Shown here: in pieces, positions 39,563-47,589 of the stretch
Layout: the number at the start of each line of letters is the position of its first letter
Position numbering within the stretch: position 1 is the stretch's first letter
Assembly (NCBI GenBank): GCA_965223905.1
Contig: CBDCXV010000010.1
Coordinates: forward strand, 896,001 to 960,000
DNA length: 64,000 nt
Direction: 5' to 3'
Source of the DNA: Candidatus Latescibacterota bacterium
Lineage (GTDB): Bacteria > Latescibacterota > UBA2968 > UBA8231
Translations under genes and position numbers: made by a program
Notes under the pieces: model-generated
Seen by the model: the letters and a program-made list of their open reading frames with translations, nothing else
Told to the model about the DNA's origin: nothing
Database searches by the model: none

Positions 39563-39720
39563 CTACTCTCCCTGTGTGTCGATCAGAACCTTCATCAGCT
39601 CGCCGCCCGCCTCGATCTCCTCGAAGACGCCCTGGAGGTCGCCGAGCCCCCGGCGCGCCGAGATCAGGCGCTCGAGCGGCAGCTCGCCGGAGGCGACCAT
39701 CGCTATGGCGGCGTCGTAGT
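39563..39720 (-). pseudogene. 3' part of a Zn-dependent alcohol/sugar dehydrogenase split by the transposon
   Basis: YDAAIAMVASGELPLERLIS...MKVLID continues in frame from the 5' part at 46720-47589 once the element and one TSD copy are removed. Confidence 0.93.
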
Positions 39721-39819
39721 GGAACTTATAACCCCTACTACAATCTGCTGAACGCAGAGATTTTGTGCGGGTAGCGGTTATAACTTCCGGTCGTTCTGTC
39801 AATCCCTGTTGAGCTGTTC

Positions 39820-40026
39820 TTATTCTTCCGTATCTTCTTTGTCCTTGGAATTATCGGTTAGCTTGCGTAAGGCTATCGGACCGCCGACAGCTACAGCTAC
39901 GAAAGCGGTTATGCCTAATCCGATAAGTAGTCGATCCGGCTCGCTGGAATTCCAGCTGATGTCGAAACCTGGGACTTTGAAGGAAAAGCCTTCCTCCTTC
40001 TTGAAAGCGTTCGTGAAGTCGATCAT
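39820..40026 (-). CDS. Small single-TM hypothetical protein (68 aa)
   Basis: LLIGLGITAFVAVAVGGPIAL followed by a charged tail; start uncertain. Confidence 0.55.
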   Translation of the reverse strand: MIDFTNAFKKEEGFSFKVPGFDISWNSSEPDRLLIGLGITAFVAVAVGGPIALRKLTDNSKDKEDTEE

Positions 40027-40269
40027 GACGTGTTTCTCGTGGCGAAGGATGTAGGTAGTTCGATAGGGTGCGGTTCGGCATCCCATCGAATGAAATCTTC
40101 GAGTATACGGAAAGATTCGAGAATTCGCAAGGCAGGGATTGACAGCTAAAAAGAACAGGGACAATAATCTATCCCTGCTCTTTTAGTCAGCGTTTATTGC
40201 CAAAGTGATTGAGCACTATCTGGATCAGCTCAAGACTAACCTCCAGCAGAATCGCGACCCACTTCGGTA

Positions 40270-40566
40270 TCATTGCCCACCTCCTTTCTTGTGAGGGTCA
40301 GTTTCCTCGCCTTTCTCGGAGTGATCCCCGTTTTTTGTGAACCTGCCGTTCTCGTCGCGTTTTTGCGCTTCCTGTCGCCGGGTTTCGTTGGGATCGACGC
40401 CGTTTTGTATATCTTCCTGCGCTTCCCTGAAATCCCGCTTCACGACATTCAGCTTGGACCGCAACCTCTCGGTGAGAAATCTTTCCACCGCAAAGCGTAT
40501 CGCGTAGACCCCGGCTTCCTTGACAACAAGAACGCCTACGGTCATGAGTATTGGCTTCCACGACAT
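40270..40566 (-). CDS. Hypothetical protein, phage-like (hydrophobic N-terminus, RDENGRF motif)
   Basis: AAAGGGGG RBS before the ATG; 98 aa. Confidence 0.6.
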   Translation of the reverse strand: MSWKPILMTVGVLVVKEAGVYAIRFAVERFLTERLRSKLNVVKRDFREAQEDIQNGVDPNETRRQEAQKRDENGRFTKNGDHSEKGEETDPHKKGGGQ

Positions 40567-40701
40567 GATTTACCCCCTTTCATAGGAGTTTGAGAATGAA
40601 CAACAGACTACCAGACGATTTCAGAGACGAAATCGCCAAGAAACAGAGACAGGAGACTCAGAGACTACGGAAGGAGAACGCGGAGCTACGTAAGCAGGCA
40701 C

Positions 40702-40747
40702 AAAAAACCCCCGGCTCACAAGAAACCGGGGGCGGTTGTTTTTTTTT
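40702..40747. terminator. Bidirectional intrinsic terminator
   Basis: A-run, CCCCCGG-loop-CCGGGGG stem, T-run. Confidence 0.75.
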
Positions 40748-40766
40748 CTCTGGTGGGGAAGGTGAG

Positions 40767-40997
40767 TTAGGGATTGGCCCTGGCTTTGAGCTGGCTTCTC
40801 AAAGATTCGATTTGATACTCAAGGGCGTCGAGGTCGTTTCTCTTGAAATTGATCTTCTTGATGAGGTTATCACAGAGCTCGTCGATTACTGTAGGGCTCG
40901 GGGATTGATCGATTAAATGCTTTTGTATATCATCTCTAAGCTCTGATTTTATCTTTTCTACCTCTTCTTCGAAGGCATCCCAGTAATTTCTTGTCAC
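40767..40997 (-). CDS. Small coiled-coil hypothetical protein
   Basis: Purine-rich RBS, GTG start, followed by the terminator. Confidence 0.55.
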   Translation of the reverse strand: MTRNYWDAFEEEVEKIKSELRDDIQKHLIDQSPSPTVIDELCDNLIKKINFKRNDLDALEYQIESLRSQLKARANP

Positions 40998-41019
40998 CTT
41001 TGCTTTCCCTTTCTTTGGG

Positions 41020-41115
41020 TTATCCTGCTAAGATTGCGGTTAGTCCGACGATTCCACAAAAAATTATGAATACCCATAAAATGCAAGCCAGTATCCAGCC
41101 AAGGAACCGTAACAT
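41020..41115 (-). CDS. 31-aa hydrophobic peptide (not in the ORF track)
   Basis: MLRFLGWILACILWVFIIFCGIVGLTAILAG*; starts 2 nt after the upstream stop, with GGAG upstream. Confidence 0.6.
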   Translation of the reverse strand: MLRFLGWILACILWVFIIFCGIVGLTAILAG

Positions 41116-41117
41116 TG

Positions 41118-41714
41118 TTACCTGGCTCCGCTTTCAATCAGTAGCCTTATTATCTCATCATGAGTATCGGGACCACAATTTGAGCTTACCCAAGTGTAAG
41201 CTTGGCTGAATTCTAATAGCGAGAATTCTAATTTCCTTGAATCGCTTCCTGGGAAGTCGATCCGCAAGACTGCCGTATCGTTTGAACTTTTCAAGTGCTC
41301 TATTAGCTCTTTGAATTTTCGATTGTCTATGTTTTTTTTGTGGCGCTCCCATCTGTCCTTGTCTCTGAGTAGTTCAACTCTTGCAACTCCAATAGGGGAA
41401 ACAAACCCCTTGAAAGATTTTGTTTCCGACCCAGACGTTATTTTGAATACAACCGCCTCATCTGTTTCAGACATATATATCGGTCTTGTTGGATCTTTGC
41501 GGTTATAGGTGAACGACATCCACTGTCCAGGCCAGCTTTTATGATATTCGCACTGTATCCACAATTCAGGGCTTTTTTTGTTGGTCATTGTGACGGTTAA
41601 CCTGGTTTTTCCCCATGTATTCATCCTTAGATTCCATGATTCATTAGATGGCCCTTTAAATTCATACGCGGAAGATGCAACAGTAGACAGTAGTAGCAGA
41701 GACAGTAACAGCAT
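41118..41714 (-). CDS. Secreted hypothetical protein (198 aa)
   Basis: Signal-like MLLLSLLLLSTVASSA; AT-rich. Confidence 0.7.
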   Translation of the reverse strand: MLLLSLLLLSTVASSAYEFKGPSNESWNLRMNTWGKTRLTVTMTNKKSPELWIQCEYHKSWPGQWMSFTYNRKDPTRPIYMSETDEAVVFKITSGSETKSFKGFVSPIGVARVELLRDKDRWERHKKNIDNRKFKELIEHLKSSNDTAVLRIDFPGSDSRKLEFSLLEFSQAYTWVSSNCGPDTHDEIIRLLIESGAR

Positions 41715-41935
41715 AGCAGACTTTCCCCGCGTCGAAGAATGATAGAATTCGACTAACCCTGTAGCTCCCCAGGGTAGCCGGGTTCAGTCAACTTCCACGT
41801 AAGATTTCGGGAAAGTCTGCCTTATTTGCCACATTCGGGGGGAGATCAAACCCCCTGAACAGGAAAGTCTGGCTATTGTATTCGGGCAGGGACCCGACAC
41901 GAGAGGTTCCTACGTGAAGCTGACTAACGGGAAGA
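41715..41935 (-). promoter_or_regulatory. Structured leader resembling phage C4-type antisense control
   Basis: 41716-41727 complementary to 41809-41820 (and 41862-41871); 41786-41801 complementary to 41911-41925; TGTCGGG..GAATACAA motif. Confidence 0.55.
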
Positions 41936-41946
41936 ATACGAACTGC

Positions 41947-41974
41947 TTGACATTACCGCAAGGGATATTATCTT
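41947..41974 (+). promoter_or_regulatory. sigma70-type promoter, probably giving a leaderless mRNA
   Basis: TTGACA-16 nt-TATCTT; ATG 6 nt downstream with no SD. Confidence 0.6.
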
Positions 41975-41980
41975 ACCAAC

Positions 41981-42226
41981 ATGATTGATAGAATAGTCAG
42001 ACAGACACTGCGCAAACTGCGCGGCCAGGGCATAGACAAGGAAGCTGAAAAGCTGGCTGCCACCTTCTTTGAGCCCGTGAAAAGTAGTGCTAATATGTGT
42101 AGTAAGTGCGGTGCTCGTCCTGCGTTCAAGGGCAATGATTACTGCGTTGAATGCGCTTCTACACAGTCAACTATGTCGCCACAAGTGCATCCGTCAGAAG
42201 TAGAATCAAAGGCAACGCCGGATTAG
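41981..42226 (+). CDS. Small Zn-ribbon protein
   Basis: CSKC...YCVEC; own promoter; hairpin directly after the stop. Confidence 0.6.
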   Translation: MIDRIVRQTLRKLRGQGIDKEAEKLAATFFEPVKSSANMCSKCGARPAFKGNDYCVECASTQSTMSPQVHPSEVESKATPD

Positions 42227-42342
42227 CCGGGGAGAGAAAATATCCCGGCTGTATAAGAGCACGGCTGGAAACTGGGTGATTCCGAGAGTCAGTTCCCACT
42301 TGCGGGGGTTAGGAGGCCCCACCGTGCCATACAATACTACGC

Positions 42343-43332
42343 CTACCGTTCCCGTATCACAAGGTCACAGTATTTCAACCGCTTACCGATCATTCGGCGG
42401 AATAGGTGTTTCATCTGTTCGTCGGTATCCTCGTTACGGATGTTCGCCTTCCCAACAAACTCGTCAAGATATTTTTGAGCATGTTCTAACGACCACTTGT
42501 AATAGGTGCCGTGGTATGCTCGCTTGACGTGCGCCCAGAAATTTTCCATCCCGTTCGTATGTGACTTGCCGTTCACCCACTGCCTTGCAGTGTGGTTGAC
42601 GTATTCGTTTTTCCGTATCCAGTCAAACCCTATGTAGGCTGTTGCGCTATCGCTGTATAGGGTCCCCTGTCGTCGCATATGTAGCTTTGCGAACGCTTGC
42701 AGTGTTTCCGCATCGTCATTTTCGATGACTTTGACGACGAACTTGCCGGTTTTCCTGTCCTTCATGCCTACGACAAGTGATTTTCCCTGTCGCCAGTCAC
42801 CGCGAAGACGCTTTTTTGAGTGCTTGTTTCCTTCCAATCCGCCGAAATACGCCTCGTCAATCTCGGCTGCTTTGCTCTTGAGCTTATCTTGATCTTCCCA
42901 CCCCTTGCGGATTCGGTGCAGCATGAACCATGCCGTTTTCTGTGACACGTCGATGTCCCGGTGTAGTTTCATCGAGCTTATGCTCTTCAGGCTGGATAGG
43001 TGCAGATAGATCGCAATCACCCATTTTTGGAGCGGAATGTTCGTCCCTTCCATTACGGATTTTGTTCTCACGCTGAAGTATCGGTGACAACCGCCGCACC
43101 AATACGGCATAGGTCGCCGGTTTTTCCGCTTGTGAACGTCGTCCATACTGCCACAATGGGGGCAATACATTCCGATTTCGCCCCATCGCACTTGCTCGAA
43201 CCACTTTTCTGCTGCTTCTTCATCAGGGAATCGTCTGAACAGTTCCGGCAGGGAGATACCCTTACGGGTGCTCTTTCCCGGACCTTCCGGTTTACGATTA
43301 CCGACGTTCGACCACTTACCAAGAAACTTCAT
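42343..43332 (-). CDS. IS1595-family (ISXO2-like DDE) transposase, intact
   Basis: Zn ribbon CPHCGS..CGGC, SSMKLHR..VSQKTAWFMLHRIR, EIDEAYFGG, YSD, VNH, HTNGMENFW, YLDEF. Confidence 0.95.
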   Translation of the reverse strand: MKFLGKWSNVGNRKPEGPGKSTRKGISLPELFRRFPDEEAAEKWFEQVRWGEIGMYCPHCGSMDDVHKRKNRRPMPYWCGGCHRYFSVRTKSVMEGTNIPLQKWVIAIYLHLSSLKSISSMKLHRDIDVSQKTAWFMLHRIRKGWEDQDKLKSKAAEIDEAYFGGLEGNKHSKKRLRGDWRQGKSLVVGMKDRKTGKFVVKVIENDDAETLQAFAKLHMRRQGTLYSDSATAYIGFDWIRKNEYVNHTARQWVNGKSHTNGMENFWAHVKRAYHGTYYKWSLEHAQKYLDEFVGKANIRNEDTDEQMKHLFRRMIGKRLKYCDLVIRER

Positions 43333-43364
43333 TCTCAATTTCTCCTTATTAGGGATTGAGGGTG

Positions 43365-43408
43365 ATAGGGGAGAGGGTTTCGTTTGGATGCGGCCCTCTC
43401 CCCGCTAT
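43365..43408. promoter_or_regulatory. Strong hairpin upstream of the transposase (attenuator-like)
   Basis: GGGGAGAGGG...CCCTCTCCCC stem. Confidence 0.55.
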
Positions 43409-43439
43409 TCATTAGATATAGGTGCGGCACGAAACGGCG

Positions 43440-43655
43440 TCAAAACCCCTGTCCGTCTGACTTGTAGGCCAGGACAAGACCCCTTTCCTGGTGGTGAATG
43501 ATCGCTCCCATCAGACAGAGATACCTTTCGGGCATCGCTCGTTTCCCCTTCTCCCATAGGCATATCTCCGCCTCACTGACCCCAAGGGCGACCCCCAGCT
43601 CCCATTGCTTCATGCCGACAGCATCGCGGGCACACTTCAACTGCGATTGTTCCAT
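43440..43655 (-). CDS. XRE/Cro-like HTH regulator
   Basis: LKCARDAVGMKQWELGVALGVSEAEICLWEKGKR. Confidence 0.85.
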   Translation of the reverse strand: MEQSQLKCARDAVGMKQWELGVALGVSEAEICLWEKGKRAMPERYLCLMGAIIHHQERGLVLAYKSDGQGF

Positions 43656-43785
43656 TTGACACGTCCTTTCTGAATGACTATGATGCTGAAAAGGGGACAG
43701 GGAGGACCGGAATCGTCCCCCCTGTCCGAGCGGAATCCGTATTCACAAACCCGGTATTTGTGACAGAACAGGACCCGCTTTCTTT
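43656..43785 (+). ncRNA. Candidate antisense sRNA with a near-consensus promoter
   Basis: TTGACA(43656)-17-TATGAT(43679); downstream hairpins GGACAGGG..CCCTGTCC and AGCGG..TCACAAA..TTTGTGA..CCGCT, then TTCTTT. Confidence 0.55.
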
Positions 43786-43791
43786 CGGAGG

Positions 43792-44001
43792 CTACTTCCC
43801 ATCGCACCTAATCCAGCCTTCCGGCTTTTGAGATACGGTCGTGATTTCTGACAGCCTGAACACCAGCTCACGTATCGTCCCGCCGTGCTCCTGGCGGTGC
43901 TGCGTTGCTTCGGGCAAGGTCTCAAAACGGTGCACCTTGCTTTCTTTTACTACAATCCACCGACGTATTACCCAGCTCGGTAGGTTCACTTCATCGGGCA
44001 T
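43792..44001 (-). CDS. Small phage-like hypothetical protein
   Basis: AAGGAG RBS; 69 aa. Confidence 0.65.
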   Translation of the reverse strand: MPDEVNLPSWVIRRWIVVKESKVHRFETLPEATQHRQEHGGTIRELVFRLSEITTVSQKPEGWIRCDGK

Positions 44002-44147
44002 TAGACACTCCTTTCTATTGGGGTTATGTGGCGCAGTTCTTGTGCTGGCTATGGCTGCACAATTGGCGACAGCCCATAAAGATGAAGTGTCTTGGGCACT
44101 CGGTCTGGACCTACCGGTGAAAACATTTTAATTGCGGCTGATTAACA

Positions 44148-44360
44148 ATGGAAGAATTAATAGCAGGTGGTTCTTTTTTAATAGCTCTTATTGGATTGGT
44201 GTGGCAGATTAGATCCGGAAACAGAAAAATAATCGAGCAAATTAACACGAGTAATGTGATAATAGAGGTTCGCAATACGTCTACTGAGAAAAAGGGAGGC
44301 AATCTAAGTGCCAATATACAAGCAGAAACAGTTCATATCTATCAGGGGGGGGTATCCTAA
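44148..44360 (+). CDS. Small protein with an N-terminal TM helix
   Basis: LIAGGSFLIALIGLVWQI; AT-rich; abuts the next ORF. Confidence 0.6.
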   Translation: MEELIAGGSFLIALIGLVWQIRSGNRKIIEQINTSNVIIEVRNTSTEKKGGNLSANIQAETVHIYQGGVS

Positions 44361-44822
44361 ATGAGCCACTTATTTCACATAGTTTTAAATACAGGGTCAG
44401 TGTCTGTTTCTACCAAGTACGAAGATATAGAGGTAATCGGAAAGATTAATCCTTGTTCTCAAGTTCAGATAGAAAACCTACAATTCGAGGGGTCATCTTT
44501 TTTTAGCTGGTTCCAAGAGAAAAATGTATTGTCGTTTGATTTGAGATTGCGCGGCAAATGTGTTGGAAACTGTTGGTGTGTTCAGAAAAAAGGGACTCAT
44601 ATAAGGAGGGTATTAGATGACATCAAACAAGCTCATCCAGGATCCTATACAGATAAGTTAGTTGACTTGCCTGTCCCTTGGATTGCTCTATGGCTGATTC
44701 AGGAAAATTGGGATAAGGCCGAAGATGCGTTCCTGATTTCTCCTTATATGTTGCGAGAGGTGCGCGACTGGATTGACAACAGAAGACGTTCGGTTAGGGA
44801 GGAGGTAGTAACTCATGATTAG
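44361..44822 (+). CDS. Hypothetical protein (153 aa)
   Basis: GGGGG RBS; start immediately after the upstream TAA; AT-rich. Confidence 0.7.
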   Translation: MSHLFHIVLNTGSVSVSTKYEDIEVIGKINPCSQVQIENLQFEGSSFFSWFQEKNVLSFDLRLRGKCVGNCWCVQKKGTHIRRVLDDIKQAHPGSYTDKLVDLPVPWIALWLIQENWDKAEDAFLISPYMLREVRDWIDNRRRSVREEVVTHD

Positions 44823-44852
44823 TGCGGCTGATTAGCGAAACTCCCCCTTTTC

Positions 44853-44936
44853 TGGTATAATACTATAGAGGATCACGTTTAGAACGCGGTTCTCTGTTTT
44901 GCTACCTTCGATTTTTCTAACCGTCAGGTGTATAAT
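44853..44936 (+). promoter_or_regulatory. Two TATAAT -10 boxes (one extended TGn) upstream of the cargo gene pair
   Basis: TGGTATAAT 44853-44861; TATAAT 44931-44936. Confidence 0.55.
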
Positions 44937-45014
44937 CGTCCCTCTAATATTACGGATAAATGGTGTAGAGCGAACCTCAGTAGGCAGGTCCCCAGGTAGG
45001 ACTCGACTTCCCCT

Positions 45015-45554
45015 ATGAATGGCATAAGGTCTTATTTATCTGAGGTTTTTTGGAAAACACCTGGGAGGTTTATTTTTCTTGCAACTGCTGTCATTACAAT
45101 TGGCCAATGGTTTATTGACATTGGAGATACCTGGACGCTTGAAAGAAAGGCATTCTCATCGGCAATTTTATTCTTGGGAGTTCTGAGTTTTGGAACGGTT
45201 CGTGCATCCTATTCGATGCACACAAGAACGAATCAGATTTTGTCTGCACAAGAGACAGCTGCCTACTTGCCTGTAAAAACCATAATCTCTGGACCGTTTC
45301 GTGTTGCGGTTATTTTGGATACAAGTGATACAGTGTTTATTGGAGATGTATTAAGCATATTTAATACTATTGGAGATGCAGAGTTTCCTGTCTGCGTTAT
45401 ATCAATAGATGCTGTCACCGACAAAGGATTTCTGCAGGGGTCATTGGTTCCCCCACAAAGCGATGAATCCCTGTCTGAATTTTTAAACGAACCGGAAAGA
45501 TTAACAGCGAAACGCAGTATAACCATAAGAGATATAGAATGCCTCAACGCATAG
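45015..45554 (+). CDS. 2-TM membrane protein with a C-terminal beta-rich domain
   Basis: FIFLATAVITIGQWF and FSSAILFLGVLSFGTV; overlaps the next gene. Confidence 0.75.
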   Translation: MNGIRSYLSEVFWKTPGRFIFLATAVITIGQWFIDIGDTWTLERKAFSSAILFLGVLSFGTVRASYSMHTRTNQILSAQETAAYLPVKTIISGPFRVAVILDTSDTVFIGDVLSIFNTIGDAEFPVCVISIDAVTDKGFLQGSLVPPQSDESLSEFLNEPERLTAKRSITIRDIECLNA

Positions 45555-45967
45555 ATGTAAGACACGACGCTGTTGTTGCAAAGGCTTTAAATAATGAGCG
45601 TCGAGTTGTGCTCAATAAAGGATCAAATGATGGGATTCAAAAAGGAGATGATTTTATTGTATTCGGCTCTGGAAATGAAATTGTTGATCCAAGCACAGGG
45701 ATAAGTCTCGGCATTCTTGAAGAAATTAAGGGGAAGGGTAGGGTTATACATGTTCAAGAAAAAATGTGCACTATTGAAACTTATGAATATGATAATGAAA
45801 TTGTTTCTAACTCCCTTGGGGTATATTCATTTTTTGGCCCAAGAAAAGTTAGAGTTTATCGAGATTTTGAAGACATAGAAGTTGGCGACTTAGCTCGAAA
45901 AATTAGATATAAAACCTCCCCGAAGCAGTTGGCCACAGTGGCGGCTACTACGACTCAGGAAGATTGA
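45539..45967 (+). CDS. FlgT C-terminal-like domain protein
   Basis: VVLNKGSNDGIQKGDDFIVF..G.EIVDPSTG.SLG.LE..KG..RV..VQEK...IEVGD. Confidence 0.75.
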   Translation: MPQRIDVRHDAVVAKALNNERRVVLNKGSNDGIQKGDDFIVFGSGNEIVDPSTGISLGILEEIKGKGRVIHVQEKMCTIETYEYDNEIVSNSLGVYSFFGPRKVRVYRDFEDIEVGDLARKIRYKTSPKQLATVAATTTQED

Positions 45968-46001
45968 ATTGCCACGTATTAAACCTTCTTCAGTATCTCA
46001 A

Positions 46002-46048
46002 TTATGACGTATAGAATTCAGGCTCTTATGACGATAGAATTCAGGCTC
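46002..46048 (+). repeat. Tandem duplication 24/23 bp
   Basis: TTATGACG(T)ATAGAATTCAGGCTC x2. Confidence 0.9.
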
Positions 46049-46149
46049 TTTCTCTTTCGCGTAGGATCGTTTATGTCGGGTTCCTGGCTGAATACAACGG
46101 GTGGCTGGCGGTGGTGTTAGAACTAACGCTTGAACTGATACGAATTATA

Positions 46150-46630
46150 TTTAATCGGTGAAGGTAGGGGAGACGCCGCAATGGACGCCTCCCCGTTGGT
46201 GACCCCTTTCATTTCCTCGCTCTACGGGAGCGCCTAACCCGGAGGCAATGGTTGGGTCTGTTGCATGCAGGATGCTGCGGCTGGGATTCTGAGGCATTAA
46301 TTTCCAGAGAGAAGCGAGCTGCTTCCCTACTGGGATCTTGGCGTTTTTGTAGGAACGTGCACAAGTATCTTGTGCTGGGGTTGATGCCTCTTCCCCCGCA
46401 GTGTCTTGCATACAAAGGTCATACATACATATCTGCTTTGTGCGGGTATGTCAACTAACAACGTAGGCGAGCGATGAAGCGGCTTCAAACCGCGTTAGCC
46501 ACCTACAGCGGGCAACTGAGATACATCAACCGAGCGGGGATTTGCGGTCCCCGGATGCCTCATAGCCTGCCATAGCGGAAGTGTTCGGGGAAGGGCTAAA
46601 CCGGCGGACTCTGGACACTGAAACAGCTAC
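46150..46630 (+). ncRNA. Candidate large structured ncRNA at the transposon right end
   Basis: Nested long helices rich in G-U pairs on the + strand (46261-46280/46396-46415; 46291-46307/46375-46390; GTAGG/CCTAC; GCGGGC/GCCTGC; GTGTTCGGGG/CTCTGGACAC); no credible ORF. Confidence 0.6.
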
Positions 46631-46719
46631 CCTATCTGTGACTGGATTTCGTCAAAAATCCACCGTCGCGGGTGCAAAATCTCTGCGTTCAGCAGATTGT
46701 AGTAGGGGTTATAAGTTCC

Positions 46720-47589
46720 GTCGTAGTCCTCCGGCTCGTACACGCGCACCCCGCACAGCCTCAGCTCGCGCCAGAAGAAGCGGAACAGGTCGATTTTCGG
46801 GGGATCGGCAAAAATGGCGACGACGACGATGCGACCGCGCGTGCGCACCAACTCCGTCATCACCCGGGCCCCCTCCTGGGTGCCGGAGACCTCGAACAGC
46901 ACGTCGGCGCCACCCGGGCTGTGCTCCTCCACGGCCCCGGCGAGATCGCGGGCGCGCGGGTCCACCGTCTCGAAACCGAGATCGCGGGCGAACTGCACCC
47001 GGTACGGGTTGACCTCGGCCAGCAGCACCTCGGCCCCGGCGTGGCGGCAGACCAGGGCTACCAGGGTTCCGATCGGGCCGCCGCCGATGACGACCGCCCG
47101 CTCCCCCGGTTTCACCTCGCCGAGACGGACGTCGTGGCAGGCCACGGCCAGCGGCTCGATCAGGGCCGCCAGCTCCATCGAGATGCCCTCGGGCAGCCGG
47201 TGCAGGGTGTGCGCCGGCACCGTCCAGGAGGCCTGGAAGGCCCCGGGGCTGTCGATGCCTATGAAGTTGAGATTCTGGCAGATGTGCTCGTGGCCGCGGC
47301 GGCAGGCCGGGCAGCCATGGCACGGCTCCAGCGGGCGCACGACGACCCCGTCCCCCGCGGCCCAGCCGCCGACCCCGGGACCGGTCTCGGCGATCGTCCC
47401 GGACATCTCGTGACCGATCACCAGCGGCGTGCTCACGCGCTGATCCATGTGGCCCTGGAAGATGTGCAGGTCGGTCCCGCACACGCCGCACCAGGCGACG
47501 TCGACGCGGACCTGTCCGGCCCCCGGGGCCACCGGCTCACACGGCCCCACTCCGATCTTCTTGCCGCCCTCGTAGAACGCCGCTTTCAC
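46720..47589 (-). pseudogene. 5' part of a Zn-dependent alcohol/sugar dehydrogenase
   Basis: GVCGTD, GHE, CHGCPACRRG..HIC, GGGPIG; native frame ends at VYEPEDYD at the TSD. Confidence 0.93.

What the first reader, a model, noticed from the sequence alone, without database searches (positions are those of the whole stretch)
39713..46727. 7-kb IS1595 cargo transposon with phage-like regulatory architecture, freshly inserted in a dehydrogenase gene
Seen: perfect 45-bp TIRs, an exact 8-bp TSD, and one centrally placed intact transposase. Removing the element restores a 339-aa ADH (..VYEPEDYD|AAIAMV..). Established: IS1595 members make 8-bp TSDs and some carry passenger genes. Unusual here: the long TIRs, a transposase about 2.6 and 3.4 kb from the ends, and a cargo of about 12 small ORFs (Cro-like HTH upstream of tnp, Zn ribbon, TM peptides) interleaved with several structured non-coding segments. 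Inference: a possibly undescribed class of RNA-regulated IS1595 transposons that shuttle defence or accessory cassettes.
Basis: partly seen in the sequence, partly recalled or inferred. Interest (0 to 1): 0.85.

Follow-up and report, generated by a model that had tools for sequence, protein, structure and literature searches.

The report
Cargo-carrying IS1595 transposon in dehydrogenase gene
A 7-kb jumping gene of a known type (an IS1595-family insertion sequence that carries extra genes) recently landed in an alcohol dehydrogenase gene; it is real and complete, but it is a new member of a described kind, not a new class.

Summary
A 6,999-bp low-GC element (39721-46719) has perfect 45-bp inverted ends and an exact 8-bp duplication, GTCGTAGT. 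It carries one intact IS1595-family transposase and splits a zinc alcohol dehydrogenase. Two genomes of the same genus, and contigs of three other sequencing studies, hold the uninterrupted site with one copy of the 8 bp.

IS1595 elements with passenger genes ("transporter IS") are already described. Of 80 relatives, 48 sit in bounded 1.8-6.2-kb elements with 8-bp duplications. RNA regulation is not supported: Rfam finds nothing above threshold, and strong folds are not clearly commoner than in host DNA.

No cargo protein of this element matches a defence family. Most ORFs are orphans. One pair, a 2-TM protein plus a small beta-barrel protein, recurs in other bacteria and is predicted to bind; its function is unknown.

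New context: the same genome holds three sister elements of 4.6, 10.7 and 25.9 kb, with related ends and exact 8-bp duplications. Two of them carry SIR2, TIR and PD-T7-4-like genes. A small XRE regulator gene is found in this genus only and recurs in these elements. Verdict: a new member of a known kind, of moderate interest.

The parts
39713..39720 (.). Left copy of the 8-bp target-site duplication, GTCGTAGT
   Evidence: a single copy stands at the empty site in G002 and G001
39721..39765 (+). Left terminal inverted repeat, 45 nt, begins with GG
   Evidence: 100% complementary; 0 in 100 shuffles
39771..39788 (-). Subterminal inverted copy (16 of 18) of the terminal 18 nt; present at the left end only
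   Evidence: its function was not tested
39820..40164 (-). ORF of 114 aa with no family and no paralogue; it may not be a gene
40270..40566 (-). ORF of 98 aa with a hydrophobic N-terminus. Paralogues in sister element E4 (41% over 115 aa) and on contig C9
40574..40777 (.). Block 82% identical to sister element E4. It holds the start of a small charged ORF (40590, +) and a hairpin with T-runs on both strands (40707-40737)
40767..40997 (-). ORF of 76 aa, coiled-coil-like, with only weak sub-threshold Pfam matches
41118..41714 (-). ORF of 198 aa with a hydrophobic signal-like N-terminus; an orphan
   Evidence: found only itself; no informative cluster
41716..41820 (.). Imperfect 105-nt hairpin that ends 2 nt before the ATG of the 198-aa ORF and holds its purine-rich stretch in the 3' arm
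   Evidence: z -6.2 on +, -5.3 on -; a counterpart in E2
41777..41924 (.). Non-coding block 71% identical to sister element E2, where it lies just downstream of that element's HTH gene
41981..42226 (+). ORF of 81 aa with CxxC...CxxC; zinc-ribbon matches are below the cut-offs
42343..43338 (-). IS1595-family DDE transposase, 331 aa, full length. The conserved columns D161, D230, E265 and K272 are present
43368..43403 (-). GC-rich 10-bp stem-loop between the HTH stop and the transposase ribosome-binding site. A second small stem covers the AAGGAG
43440..43655 (-). XRE-type HTH gene, 71 aa, upstream of the transposase and in the same direction. Multi-copy, found only in this genus among genomes searched, under purifying selection
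43688..43727 (-). Terminator-like hairpin (13-bp stem) plus UUUU after the 69-aa ORF
43792..44001 (-). ORF of 69 aa with two paralogues in E4 (68% and 82%)
44148..44360 (+). ORF of 70 aa with a hydrophobic N-terminus. Only short weak matches to holin-like or type I toxin peptides
44361..44822 (+). ORF of 153 aa; an orphan
   Evidence: found only itself
45015..45554 (+). 179-aa protein: two hydrophobic helices plus a C-terminal domain. First gene of a conserved pair
   Evidence: (12 other cluster representatives at E <= 0.001)
45539..45967 (+). 142-aa small beta-barrel protein; second gene of the pair; its start overlaps the first gene
   Evidence: (pLDDT 82)
45968..46674 (.). ORF-poor right arm, about 700 nt. 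It holds a perfect 17-nt direct repeat at 46011 and 46034 and one unsupported 91-aa ORF (46151-46426, -)
46675..46719 (-). Right terminal inverted repeat, 45 nt
46720..46727 (.). Right copy of the 8-bp target-site duplication, GTCGTAGT
46720..47589 (-). N-terminal 290 codons of the interrupted zinc alcohol dehydrogenase
   Evidence: ADH_N 7.4e-30, ADH_zinc_N 5.2e-20
39563..39712 (-). C-terminal 49 codons of the same dehydrogenase

Best explanation
This is an autonomous IS1595-family transporter IS (tIS), that is, a small transposon.

Shown:
- its boundaries, the 8-bp duplication and the empty sites;
- the family and intactness of the transposase;
- membership of a clade whose elements share related ends.

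Inferred mechanism. The single Zn-ribbon/DDE transposase binds the GG-initiated 45-bp ends. It moves the whole 7.0 kb and inserts it at cuts staggered by 8 bp. Here that disrupted a zinc alcohol dehydrogenase after codon 290. The insertion is recent: the ends are identical, and close relatives lack it.

Inferred regulation, about even odds. The XRE-type HTH gene sits directly upstream of the transposase and reads the same way, with a strong stem-loop and a masked ribosome-binding site between them. It most likely keeps transposase expression low.

Cargo. It is a mosaic of small, mostly orphan genes. The only module with outside support is a membrane-anchored 179-aa protein plus a 142-aa beta-barrel protein. 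The two are predicted to bind each other; their function is unknown.
For: Boundaries.

Transposase family. Conserved D161/D230/E265/K272 columns across 88 transposases.

Empty site. In G002 the flanks are 96-99% identical and overlap by 9 nt; the same holds in G001 at 91%. A contig joint 39711->46719 that skips 7,007 nt, with 9 letters fitting both sides, is seen in runs X3, X5 and X9, from three other studies.

Foreign composition: GC 0.38-0.55 against at least 0.70 in the flanks.

Cognate ends. Elements E2, E3 and E4 in the same genome start GGGA/GGGG, share ..TAY..ACTAC-like termini and have exact 8-bp duplications. Their transposases form one clade with this one (SH-aLRT 96, quick tree). 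E2 (10.7 kb) also has an empty site in G002, with an 8-nt overlap.

Wider relatives: 48 of 80 loci are bounded elements of 1.8-6.2 kb with exact 8-bp duplications; a flank-swap control gave 0 of 80.

HTH. There are 18 copies in the three genomes of the genus. Differences fall mostly on third codon positions: 442/182/1248. By my comparison of the coordinates, each of the five transposase copies in G001 has an HTH copy 3-9 kb away.

Gene pair. 66 of 80 metagenome loci have an adjacent upstream ORF of 90 aa or more, but these loci form only 9 clusters at 85% identity. Complex model: score 0.63, best of 3 controls 0.08. That mark was reached by 58 of 80 solved complexes and 2 of 110 mismatched pairs. 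The three runs agree in at least 90% of contacts and partner pLDDT is at least 78. My own alignments were used, so those counts hold only roughly.
Against: - There is only one copy in this genome, so activity is inferred from a single insertion.
- No circle or excision junction was seen, and the runs are kept as contigs, which cannot show rare forms.
- The occupied junctions are not bridged by the listed short-read contigs, which break at the repeats (table 8). The join rests on the assembly itself and on the duplication.
- The HTH match to Pfam is below the cut-offs. No operator was found, and its upstream regions are not conserved between copies. Its role in transposition is therefore a guess. 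Sister element E3 has no copy.
- The two closest outside relatives (L011 and L012, 46-49% identity) showed no flanking inverted repeats.
- The tree is the quick one; the careful search did not finish.
Confidence: 0.8

Rival explanations
1. One reading: a new class of IS1595 transposon whose movement or cargo is controlled by structured RNAs and which exists to shuttle defence cassettes.
For: - One very strong hairpin (41716-41820, z -6.2) abuts the start of the 198-aa ORF. Its right arm and the next 100 nt are 71% conserved in sister element E2, where a different left arm again pairs with it.
- Sister elements carry SIR2 (PADLOC 8e-18), a TIR domain (Pfam 1.3e-8) and a PD-T7-4-like protein (4.8e-9).
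- Among 86 neighbours of the 179/142-aa pair in 11 other loci are PD-Lambda-1, PDC-S01, PDC-S20 and PtuA/AriA-like proteins.
Against: - Rfam gives nothing above threshold.
- Folds with z < -2.5 number 17 of 230 in the element against 6 of 160 in host DNA, and host DNA also reaches z -5.4.
- Terminator-like and promoter-like sites are at the shuffle expectation.
- No cargo protein of this element other than the HTH, plus one weak Zn-ribbon match, hits PADLOC.
- Passenger-carrying IS1595 elements are already described.
- Only two sequences of the hairpin exist, so covariation cannot be tested.
Confidence: 0.12
2. The element is non-autonomous. The 45-bp ends belong to another transposase, and the IS1595 gene inside is a passenger or a nested IS.
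For: - The transposase is central, unlike 43 of 48 bounded relatives, where it starts within about 110 nt of an end.
- In sister element E2 the HTH and the conserved non-coding block are adjacent. Here they are separated by the transposase and the Zn-ribbon ORF. This could mean that the transposase module was inserted there.
Against: - No IS-like inverted repeats flank the transposase. The best flanking pair is 13 nt at 92%, does not start with GG, and lies inside neighbouring ORFs.
- No other transposase family was found among the element's ORFs scanned.
- The end sequence occurs nowhere else in the genome.
- The GG start and the 8-bp duplication are the family's hallmarks (passage in PMC8101967).
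- Sister elements with same-clade transposases have related termini.
Confidence: 0.06
3. Assembly artefact or contaminant: foreign low-GC DNA joined by mistake into a high-GC contig.
For: - The genome is rated 5.1% contaminated.
- The element's GC differs strongly from the host's.
- In run X1 the short contigs break at both ends of the element, and the element's depth (9-16) is below that of the flanks (24-52).
Against: - A misjoin would not produce perfect 45-bp inverted ends bracketed by an exact duplicate of 8 bp that is single-copy in relatives.
- Pieces of the element (HTH, 69-aa ORF, 98-aa ORF, transposase) have paralogues on three other contigs of the same genome and in both other genomes of the genus.
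- Breaks at a 45-bp repeat are expected for short-word contigs.
Confidence: 0.02

Closest known systems
Transporter IS (tIS) of the IS1595 family (Siguier, Gagnevin & Chandler 2009, cited in the papers I read; subgroup names ISNwi1, ISNha5 and others)
   Same: - One Zn-ribbon + DDE_Tnp_IS1595 transposase.
- Inverted ends that begin with GG.
- An 8-bp duplication.
- Passenger genes between the ends, among them a transcription regulator. PMC11891212 (passage seen) names regulators as the passengers of ISNha5.
   Different: - The transposase is at most 35% identical to any IS1595 transposase on the plasmids searched. It is 32-49% identical to the 80 best genome relatives and lies on a long branch with its paralogues from the same genome.
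- The transposase is central, not next to an end.
- The ends are 45 bp and perfect.
- Sister elements reach 10.7 and 25.9 kb. By my recollection, not checked, the largest ISfinder entries are about 8 kb.
- The E...K spacing (E265, K272) fits the 'DDEK' signature that I recall for the ISNwi1 group. This was not checked against ISfinder.
The 'GGCAATAATATACTTGAC' group of IS1595 elements found here in Acidobacteriota, Planctomycetota and other MAGs
   Same: - The same transposase family, at 32-38% identity.
- GG ends, exact 8-bp duplications and extra DNA beyond the transposase in all 48 bounded cases.
   Different: - They are smaller: 1.8-6.2 kb, median 2.9 kb.
- The transposase starts within about 110 nt of the left end in 43 of 48.
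- The terminal sequence differs.
Eukaryotic Merlin transposons (relatives of IS1016/IS1595)
   Same: The DDE_Tnp_IS1595 domain, terminal 5'-GG, 8-9-bp duplications and long inverted ends of 24-462 bp (passage in PMC8101967).
   Different: Merlin elements are eukaryotic, lack the Zn-ribbon domain and carry no bacterial cargo.
Composite (compound) transposons
   Same: Several kilobases of cargo are moved between inverted ends.
   Different: There are no IS copies at the ends: one transposase gene sits in the middle and the ends are only 45 bp. Sister E4 comes closer to this kind: its ends are about 540-bp inverted repeats, one of which continues into a transposase.

Membership tests
IS1595 family | C-terminal DDE_Tnp_IS1595 catalytic domain | tested here: met
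   Pfam PF12762, E 3.4e-29, 102 bits (cut-off 27). NCBIfam NF033547, 150 bits (cut-off 75). D161, D230, E265 and K272 lie in columns at least 97% conserved among 88 transposases. Assigning them to the catalytic triad is my inference.
IS1595 family | N-terminal Zn_Tnp_IS1595 zinc ribbon (present in all groups but IS1016) | tested here: met
   PF12760, 28.6 bits (cut-off 25.4), residues 38-86. C59, C62 and C81 are conserved.
IS1595 family | 8-bp target-site duplication | tested here: met
   GTCGTAGT on both sides. A single copy stands at the empty site in two genomes of the genus.
IS1595 family | Terminal inverted repeats (a GG start as in the Merlin/IS1016 relatives) | tested here: met
   45 of 45 nt, starting with GG.
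IS1595 family | A single transposase gene | tested here: met
   One DDE ORF among the 10 + 6 ORFs of the element scanned against Pfam.
Transporter IS (tIS) | An IS-like structure that also holds passenger genes unrelated to transposition | tested here: met
   About 6 kb of non-transposase DNA lies between the ends. At least the 179/142-aa pair, the HTH, and the 69-aa and 98-aa ORFs have homologues elsewhere.
ISNwi1 or ISNha5 subgroup of IS1595 | Clustering with ISfinder reference transposases and the subgroup's end sequence | not testable with these tools
   No ISfinder sequences are on hand. The DDEK-type spacing is a recalled criterion.
Anti-phage defence island or cassette | Cargo proteins that match known defence families | tested here: not met
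   In PADLOC, 0 of 8 non-HTH, non-Zn-ribbon cargo ORFs matched. The HTH matched only HTH parts of models; the Zn ribbon gave E 0.018. The criterion is met in sisters E2 and E4.
Prophage or phage-derived element | Phage structural, replication or lysis genes, or DNA similarity to phages | tested here: not met
   PHROG matches were obtained only for the HTH, plus three weak ones. There is no blastn match in 50,697 phage records. The end motif is absent from viral contigs.
Known RNA families (Rfam 15) | A match at the family's gathering score | tested here: not met
   The only match is symR, 23 bits against 61, E 0.77.

The most novel reading that the evidence does not exclude
The element and its sisters form a lineage-restricted branch of IS1595 that has grown from insertion sequences into true multi-gene transposons of 7-26 kb, with ends up to about 540 bp. 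On this reading they use a dedicated XRE repressor as an on/off switch and act as vehicles for anti-phage genes. The 179-aa membrane protein and the 142-aa beta-barrel protein carried here would then be an undescribed two-component membrane defence or toxin-antitoxin-like module.
Probability: 0.2. Interest if true: 0.6.

Novelty: new member of a known kind. Interest (0 to 1): 0.38.

Why it matters
**As a case.** It is a clean, datable example of a passenger-carrying IS1595 element. Both ends are identical, the empty site is known in sister genomes, and the disrupted gene is identified. That makes it a good substrate for the first transposition assays of this little-studied clade.

**As context.** One bacterial lineage holds IS1595-type elements from 4.6 to 25.9 kb, and some carry SIR2, TIR and PD-T7-4-like genes. 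A family usually thought of as plain insertion sequences can therefore move defence genes in blocks of 10 kb or more.

**The gene pair.** The conserved 179/142-aa pair occurs in unrelated bacteria, often beside mobile or defence genes. It is a concrete candidate for functional testing.

Nothing here overturns current views.

Tried and rejected
**Searches that led nowhere**
- PADLOC, PHROGs and NCBIfam on the cargo ORFs gave nothing beyond HTH-type matches and weak short hits.
- The word-indexed protein search found only the query itself for the 198-aa and 153-aa ORFs.
- The Atlas gave only 'hypothetical' clusters for the 179-aa and 198-aa proteins.
- The fold search of the 142-aa model gave only generic small beta-barrels: FlgT, MreC and TsaP-like, TM 0.3-0.47. 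No function follows from that.
- The element has no DNA match in plasmids or phages, and the end motif is absent from viral contigs.

**Inverted repeats and empty sites not found**
- No inverted repeats were found around the closest outside relatives L011 and L012.
- None were found within 10 kb on either side of five transposase copies in G001. Those copies sit in mosaic contexts sharing blocks of 82-97% identity.
- Empty sites for E3 and E4 were sought in G001 and G002. There was no match for the E3 flank, and only repetitive matches of 68-90% for the E4 flank. Nothing can be concluded for these two.
- A fifth candidate element, C2:~484078-492286, has related ends but no matching 8-bp duplication. 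I did not count it.

**Sequencing runs**
- In run X1 the skip joint (depth 25.3) has only 21 letters on its shorter side. The tool warns that sides under 30 often come from other organisms. So 'polymorphic within the source sample' is a weak hint only.
- No circle junction was seen, but contigs cannot show one.
- Parts of the element without cover in X3, X5 and X9 say nothing.

**Papers**
- I saw passages of PMC8101967, PMC11891212, PMC3129680 and bioRxiv 10.1101/2021.05.26.445724, and search listings.
- Siguier et al. 2009 and the ISfinder size tables were not available. The figures I give for them are recalled.
- Supplementary files were not consulted. The group table in the supplement of PMC8101967 might have helped with subgroup assignment.

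**Other limits**
- The neighbour tallies do not say which loci hold which family, and no background rate was computed.

Full report
**What is there.** The window has a perfect 45-nt inverted repeat at 39721-39765 and 46675-46719. The pattern occurs exactly twice in the window and never in 100 shuffles. Directly outside both arms stands GTCGTAGT. The 6,999 bp between the ends have GC 0.38-0.55, against at least 0.70 in the flanks.

The only large ORF, 42343-43338 on the minus strand (331 aa), is an IS1595-family transposase:
- DDE_Tnp_IS1595, E 3.4e-29;
- Zn_ribbon_IS1595, above its cut-off;
- NCBIfam transpos_IS1595, 150 bits against a cut-off of 75.

Its residues D161, D230, E265 and K272 fall in columns conserved in at least 97% of 88 aligned transposases.

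The flanks are two parts of one zinc alcohol dehydrogenase. The 290 N-terminal codons carry ADH_N and ADH_zinc_N, and 49 further codons lie on the other side.

**The insertion is real and recent.** Two other genomes of the same genus hold the dehydrogenase uninterrupted, at 100% and 94% protein identity over the 290 residues. When the window is aligned to them, the left flank ends and the right flank begins with a 9-nt overlap. That is one copy of the 8-bp target plus one chance base.

I also laid public contigs on the region. A joint from 39711 to 46719 that skips 7,007 nt, with 9 letters fitting both sides, appears in runs of three other studies (X3, X5, and X9, which is an RNA library). It also appears in X1, the run that holds the element itself, but with only 21 letters on one side. 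So the empty allele is common among relatives. Whether the source population is mixed remains a weak hint. No circle junction was seen, and contigs could not show one.

The element is single-copy in its genome. It has no DNA match in the plasmid or phage collections, and the end motif is absent from viral contigs.

I found no IS-like repeats hugging the transposase and no relic ends inside the element.

The genome holds seven other full-length paralogues at 40-57% identity. Around them I found three more bounded elements, each with an exact 8-bp duplication:

| Element | Place | Size | Duplication |
|---|---|---|---|
| E2 | C2:410023-420751 | 10,729 bp | GCTGAAAC |
| E3 | C11:1961238-1965811 | 4,574 bp | ATCGAGGC |
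| E4 | C11:1182940-1208810 | 25,871 bp | AACGCCAC |

Their ends start GGGA or GGGG. They share with this element a GGRA..TAY...ACTAC-like first 25 nt or so. The inverted repeats extend to 86-88 nt in E2 and E3, and to about 540 nt in E4.

In a quick maximum-likelihood tree the transposases of all four elements form one clade (SH-aLRT 96). Its sisters are a fifth paralogue and two MAG sequences, and a long branch separates it from the rest. The careful search did not finish.

E2 also has an empty site in a genome of the genus, with an 8-nt overlap. So at least 10.7 kb has moved as one unit. For E3 and E4 no orthologous site could be found.

**How unusual is cargo in this family?** A scan of one genome per species found 358 relatives, and the best 80 were kept (32-49% identity). 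I required GG...CC ends, at least 17 of 24 matching arm positions and an exact 8-bp duplication.
- 48 of the 80 loci passed; a control with swapped right flanks gave 0 of 80.
- Among the 54 loci with enough flank, 37 passed.
- All 48 are longer than a bare IS: 1.8-6.2 kb, median 2.9 kb.
- In 43 of 48 the transposase begins within about 110 nt of the left end.
- Their ends read GGCAATAATATACTTGAC or close to it.

The literature fits this. [quoted passage not shown] They name transcription regulators as passengers of ISNha5 (PMC11891212). They list 8-bp duplications, the Zn finger, the DDE domain and, for the eukaryotic relatives, GG termini and long inverted ends (PMC8101967).

So the kind is known. 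What is particular here is the central position of the transposase, the perfect 45-bp ends, a size above all 48 bounded relatives, and membership of a deep, lineage-restricted clade. The closest plasmid-borne IS1595 transposase is 35% identical.

**The regulator.** The 71-aa ORF at 43440-43655 lies directly upstream of the transposase on the same strand. Its HTH matches are weak: Pfam below the cut-offs, PHROG regulators at 3e-5 to 1e-3. It is nevertheless a real gene.
- 18 copies occur in the three genomes of the genus (5, 6 and 7 copies). None occurs in 118 other genomes of the class at E <= 1e-8.
- Similarity starts at the ATG and stops near codon 60, and the flanks cannot be aligned.
- Among 12 copies, differences by codon position are 442, 182 and 1,248. 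There are 1,020 synonymous against 420 non-synonymous codon differences.
- Copies lie in E1, E2 and E4 (two copies). In G001, by my comparison of the coordinates, a copy lies 3-9 kb from each of five transposase copies.

Between its stop codon and the transposase start lie a 10-bp GC stem and a small stem over the AAGGAG. I read this as an element-encoded repressor plus leader structures that keep transposase expression low. That reading is inference.

**The cargo.**
- *Left of the transposase:* a Zn-ribbon-like 81-aa ORF, a secreted-looking 198-aa orphan, a 76-aa coiled-coil ORF, a small charged ORF inside a block 82% identical to E4, a 98-aa hydrophobic protein with paralogues, and an unsupported 114-aa ORF.
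- *Right of the transposase:* a 69-aa ORF with paralogues in E4, then a plus-strand row of 70-, 153-, 179- and 142-aa ORFs, then about 700 nt without a convincing gene.

Only the last two genes of that row have outside support.
- The 142-aa protein has 22 homologous clusters at 31-61% identity, none of them named. Its model (pLDDT 82) is a small beta-barrel resembling ring-building domains of FlgT, MreC and TsaP, with low TM scores.
- In 66 of 80 metagenome loci its homologue is preceded, often with overlap, by an ORF of 90 aa or more. These are mostly 164-180 aa with two hydrophobic helices. Most of the 14 exceptions lie at contig edges.
- The 80 loci collapse to 9 clusters at 85% identity, and one gut element accounts for 63 of them.
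- The 179-aa protein has 12 other cluster representatives at E <= 0.001 among 1.84 billion.
- A complex model of its C-terminal domain with the 142-aa protein scored 0.63, against 0.08 for the best of three controls. That mark was reached by 58 of 80 solved complexes and 2 of 110 mismatched pairs. The runs agree in at least 90% of contacts and partner pLDDT is at least 78. My own alignments were used, so those counts hold only roughly. The interface uses the invariant SLGxLE stretch of the small protein.
- Among 86 neighbouring ORFs in 11 representative loci there are XRE regulators, IS66 transposases, RecT/YqaJ and a few strong PADLOC matches: PD-Lambda-1, PDC-S01, PDC-S20 and PtuA/AriA-like proteins. 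No background rate was computed.

The function of the pair remains unknown.

**Defence genes in the sisters.**
- E4 encodes a SIR2-domain protein (Pfam 7e-11, PADLOC SIR2 8e-18). It also holds WD40, SWIB+DnaJ, DUF3102, DUF1232 and a UPF0236 transposase-like protein.
- E2 encodes a TIR-domain protein (1.3e-8) and a DUF4145/PD-T7-4-like protein (4.8e-9).

So the idea that this clade can carry defence genes has support at the family level, but not for the element in the window.

**RNA.** Rfam gives one sub-threshold match. Promoter-like sites (8, against 8.3 expected) and terminator-like sites (10, against 8.0 expected) are at the shuffle expectation.

In 120-nt windows, 17 of 230 strand-tests inside the element had z < -2.5. 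In host DNA on both sides 6 of 160 did, with a minimum of -5.4. Step and number of shuffles differed between the two runs. That is at most a twofold excess.

One structure stands out, an imperfect 105-nt hairpin at 41716-41820 (z -6.2). It ends 2 nt before the ATG of the 198-aa ORF and holds the purine-rich stretch before it. Its right arm and the following 100 nt are 71% identical to a block next to the HTH gene of E2, where a different left arm again pairs with it. This may be a translational leader. With two sequences it cannot be tested, so I leave it as unexplained.

**Verdict.** The element is an intact, recently inserted IS1595-family transporter IS. It is a new member of a known kind, in a clade that reaches unusual sizes. 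The claims of a new class and of RNA regulation are not supported.

Noticed in passing
G000 contig C11:1182940-1208810 (outside the window; loci L192, L193): A 25.9-kb element has IS1595-type ends, inverted repeats of about 540 bp and an exact 8-bp duplication, AACGCCAC. It holds two IS1595 transposases, two copies of the small HTH gene, a SIR2-domain protein, and WD40, SWIB+DnaJ and UPF0236 proteins. If it moved as one unit it is far larger than the IS1595 elements I know of.
   Followed up: partly
G000 contig C2:410023-420751 (locus L194): A 10.7-kb sister element with 88-nt imperfect ends and the duplication GCTGAAAC. G002 holds its empty site. It carries two transposases, the HTH gene, a TIR-domain protein and a PD-T7-4-like (DUF4145) protein.
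   Followed up: partly
G000 contig C11:1961238-1965811 (locus L195): A 4.6-kb sister element with the duplication ATCGAGGC. Its transposase ORF matched in two overlapping pieces in tblastn, so it may be frameshifted. A DUF772 transposase fragment lies inside it.
   Followed up: partly
G001:C3, five places (loci L187-L191): A genome of the same genus has at least five copies of a transposase 57-59% identical to this one. They are embedded in mosaic regions that share reshuffled blocks of 82-97% identity. No ends were found within 10 kb on either side.
   Followed up: partly
window 42693-42953: This part of the transposase gene has very high summed contig depth in three metagenome runs (71, 253 and 113, against 0-25 in the neighbouring bins of the element). 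Those communities therefore hold many related IS1595 copies.
   Followed up: no
window 46011-46050: A perfect 17-nt direct repeat, ATAGAATTCAGGCTCTT, occurs twice 23 nt apart in the ORF-poor right arm of the element.
   Followed up: no
window 39771-39788: An inverted copy (16 of 18) of the terminal 18 nt lies 50 nt inside the left end only. It may be a subterminal binding site that makes the two ends unequal.
   Followed up: no
G000 contig C2:~484078-492286: An IS1595 paralogue is flanked by ends like those of E3 and E4 but without a matching 8-bp duplication. It may be a rearranged or decayed element.
   Followed up: no
G000 contig C10:637827-638270: A 35%-identical paralogue of the 142-aa beta-barrel cargo protein lies elsewhere on the window's own contig. 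Its neighbours were not examined.
   Followed up: no
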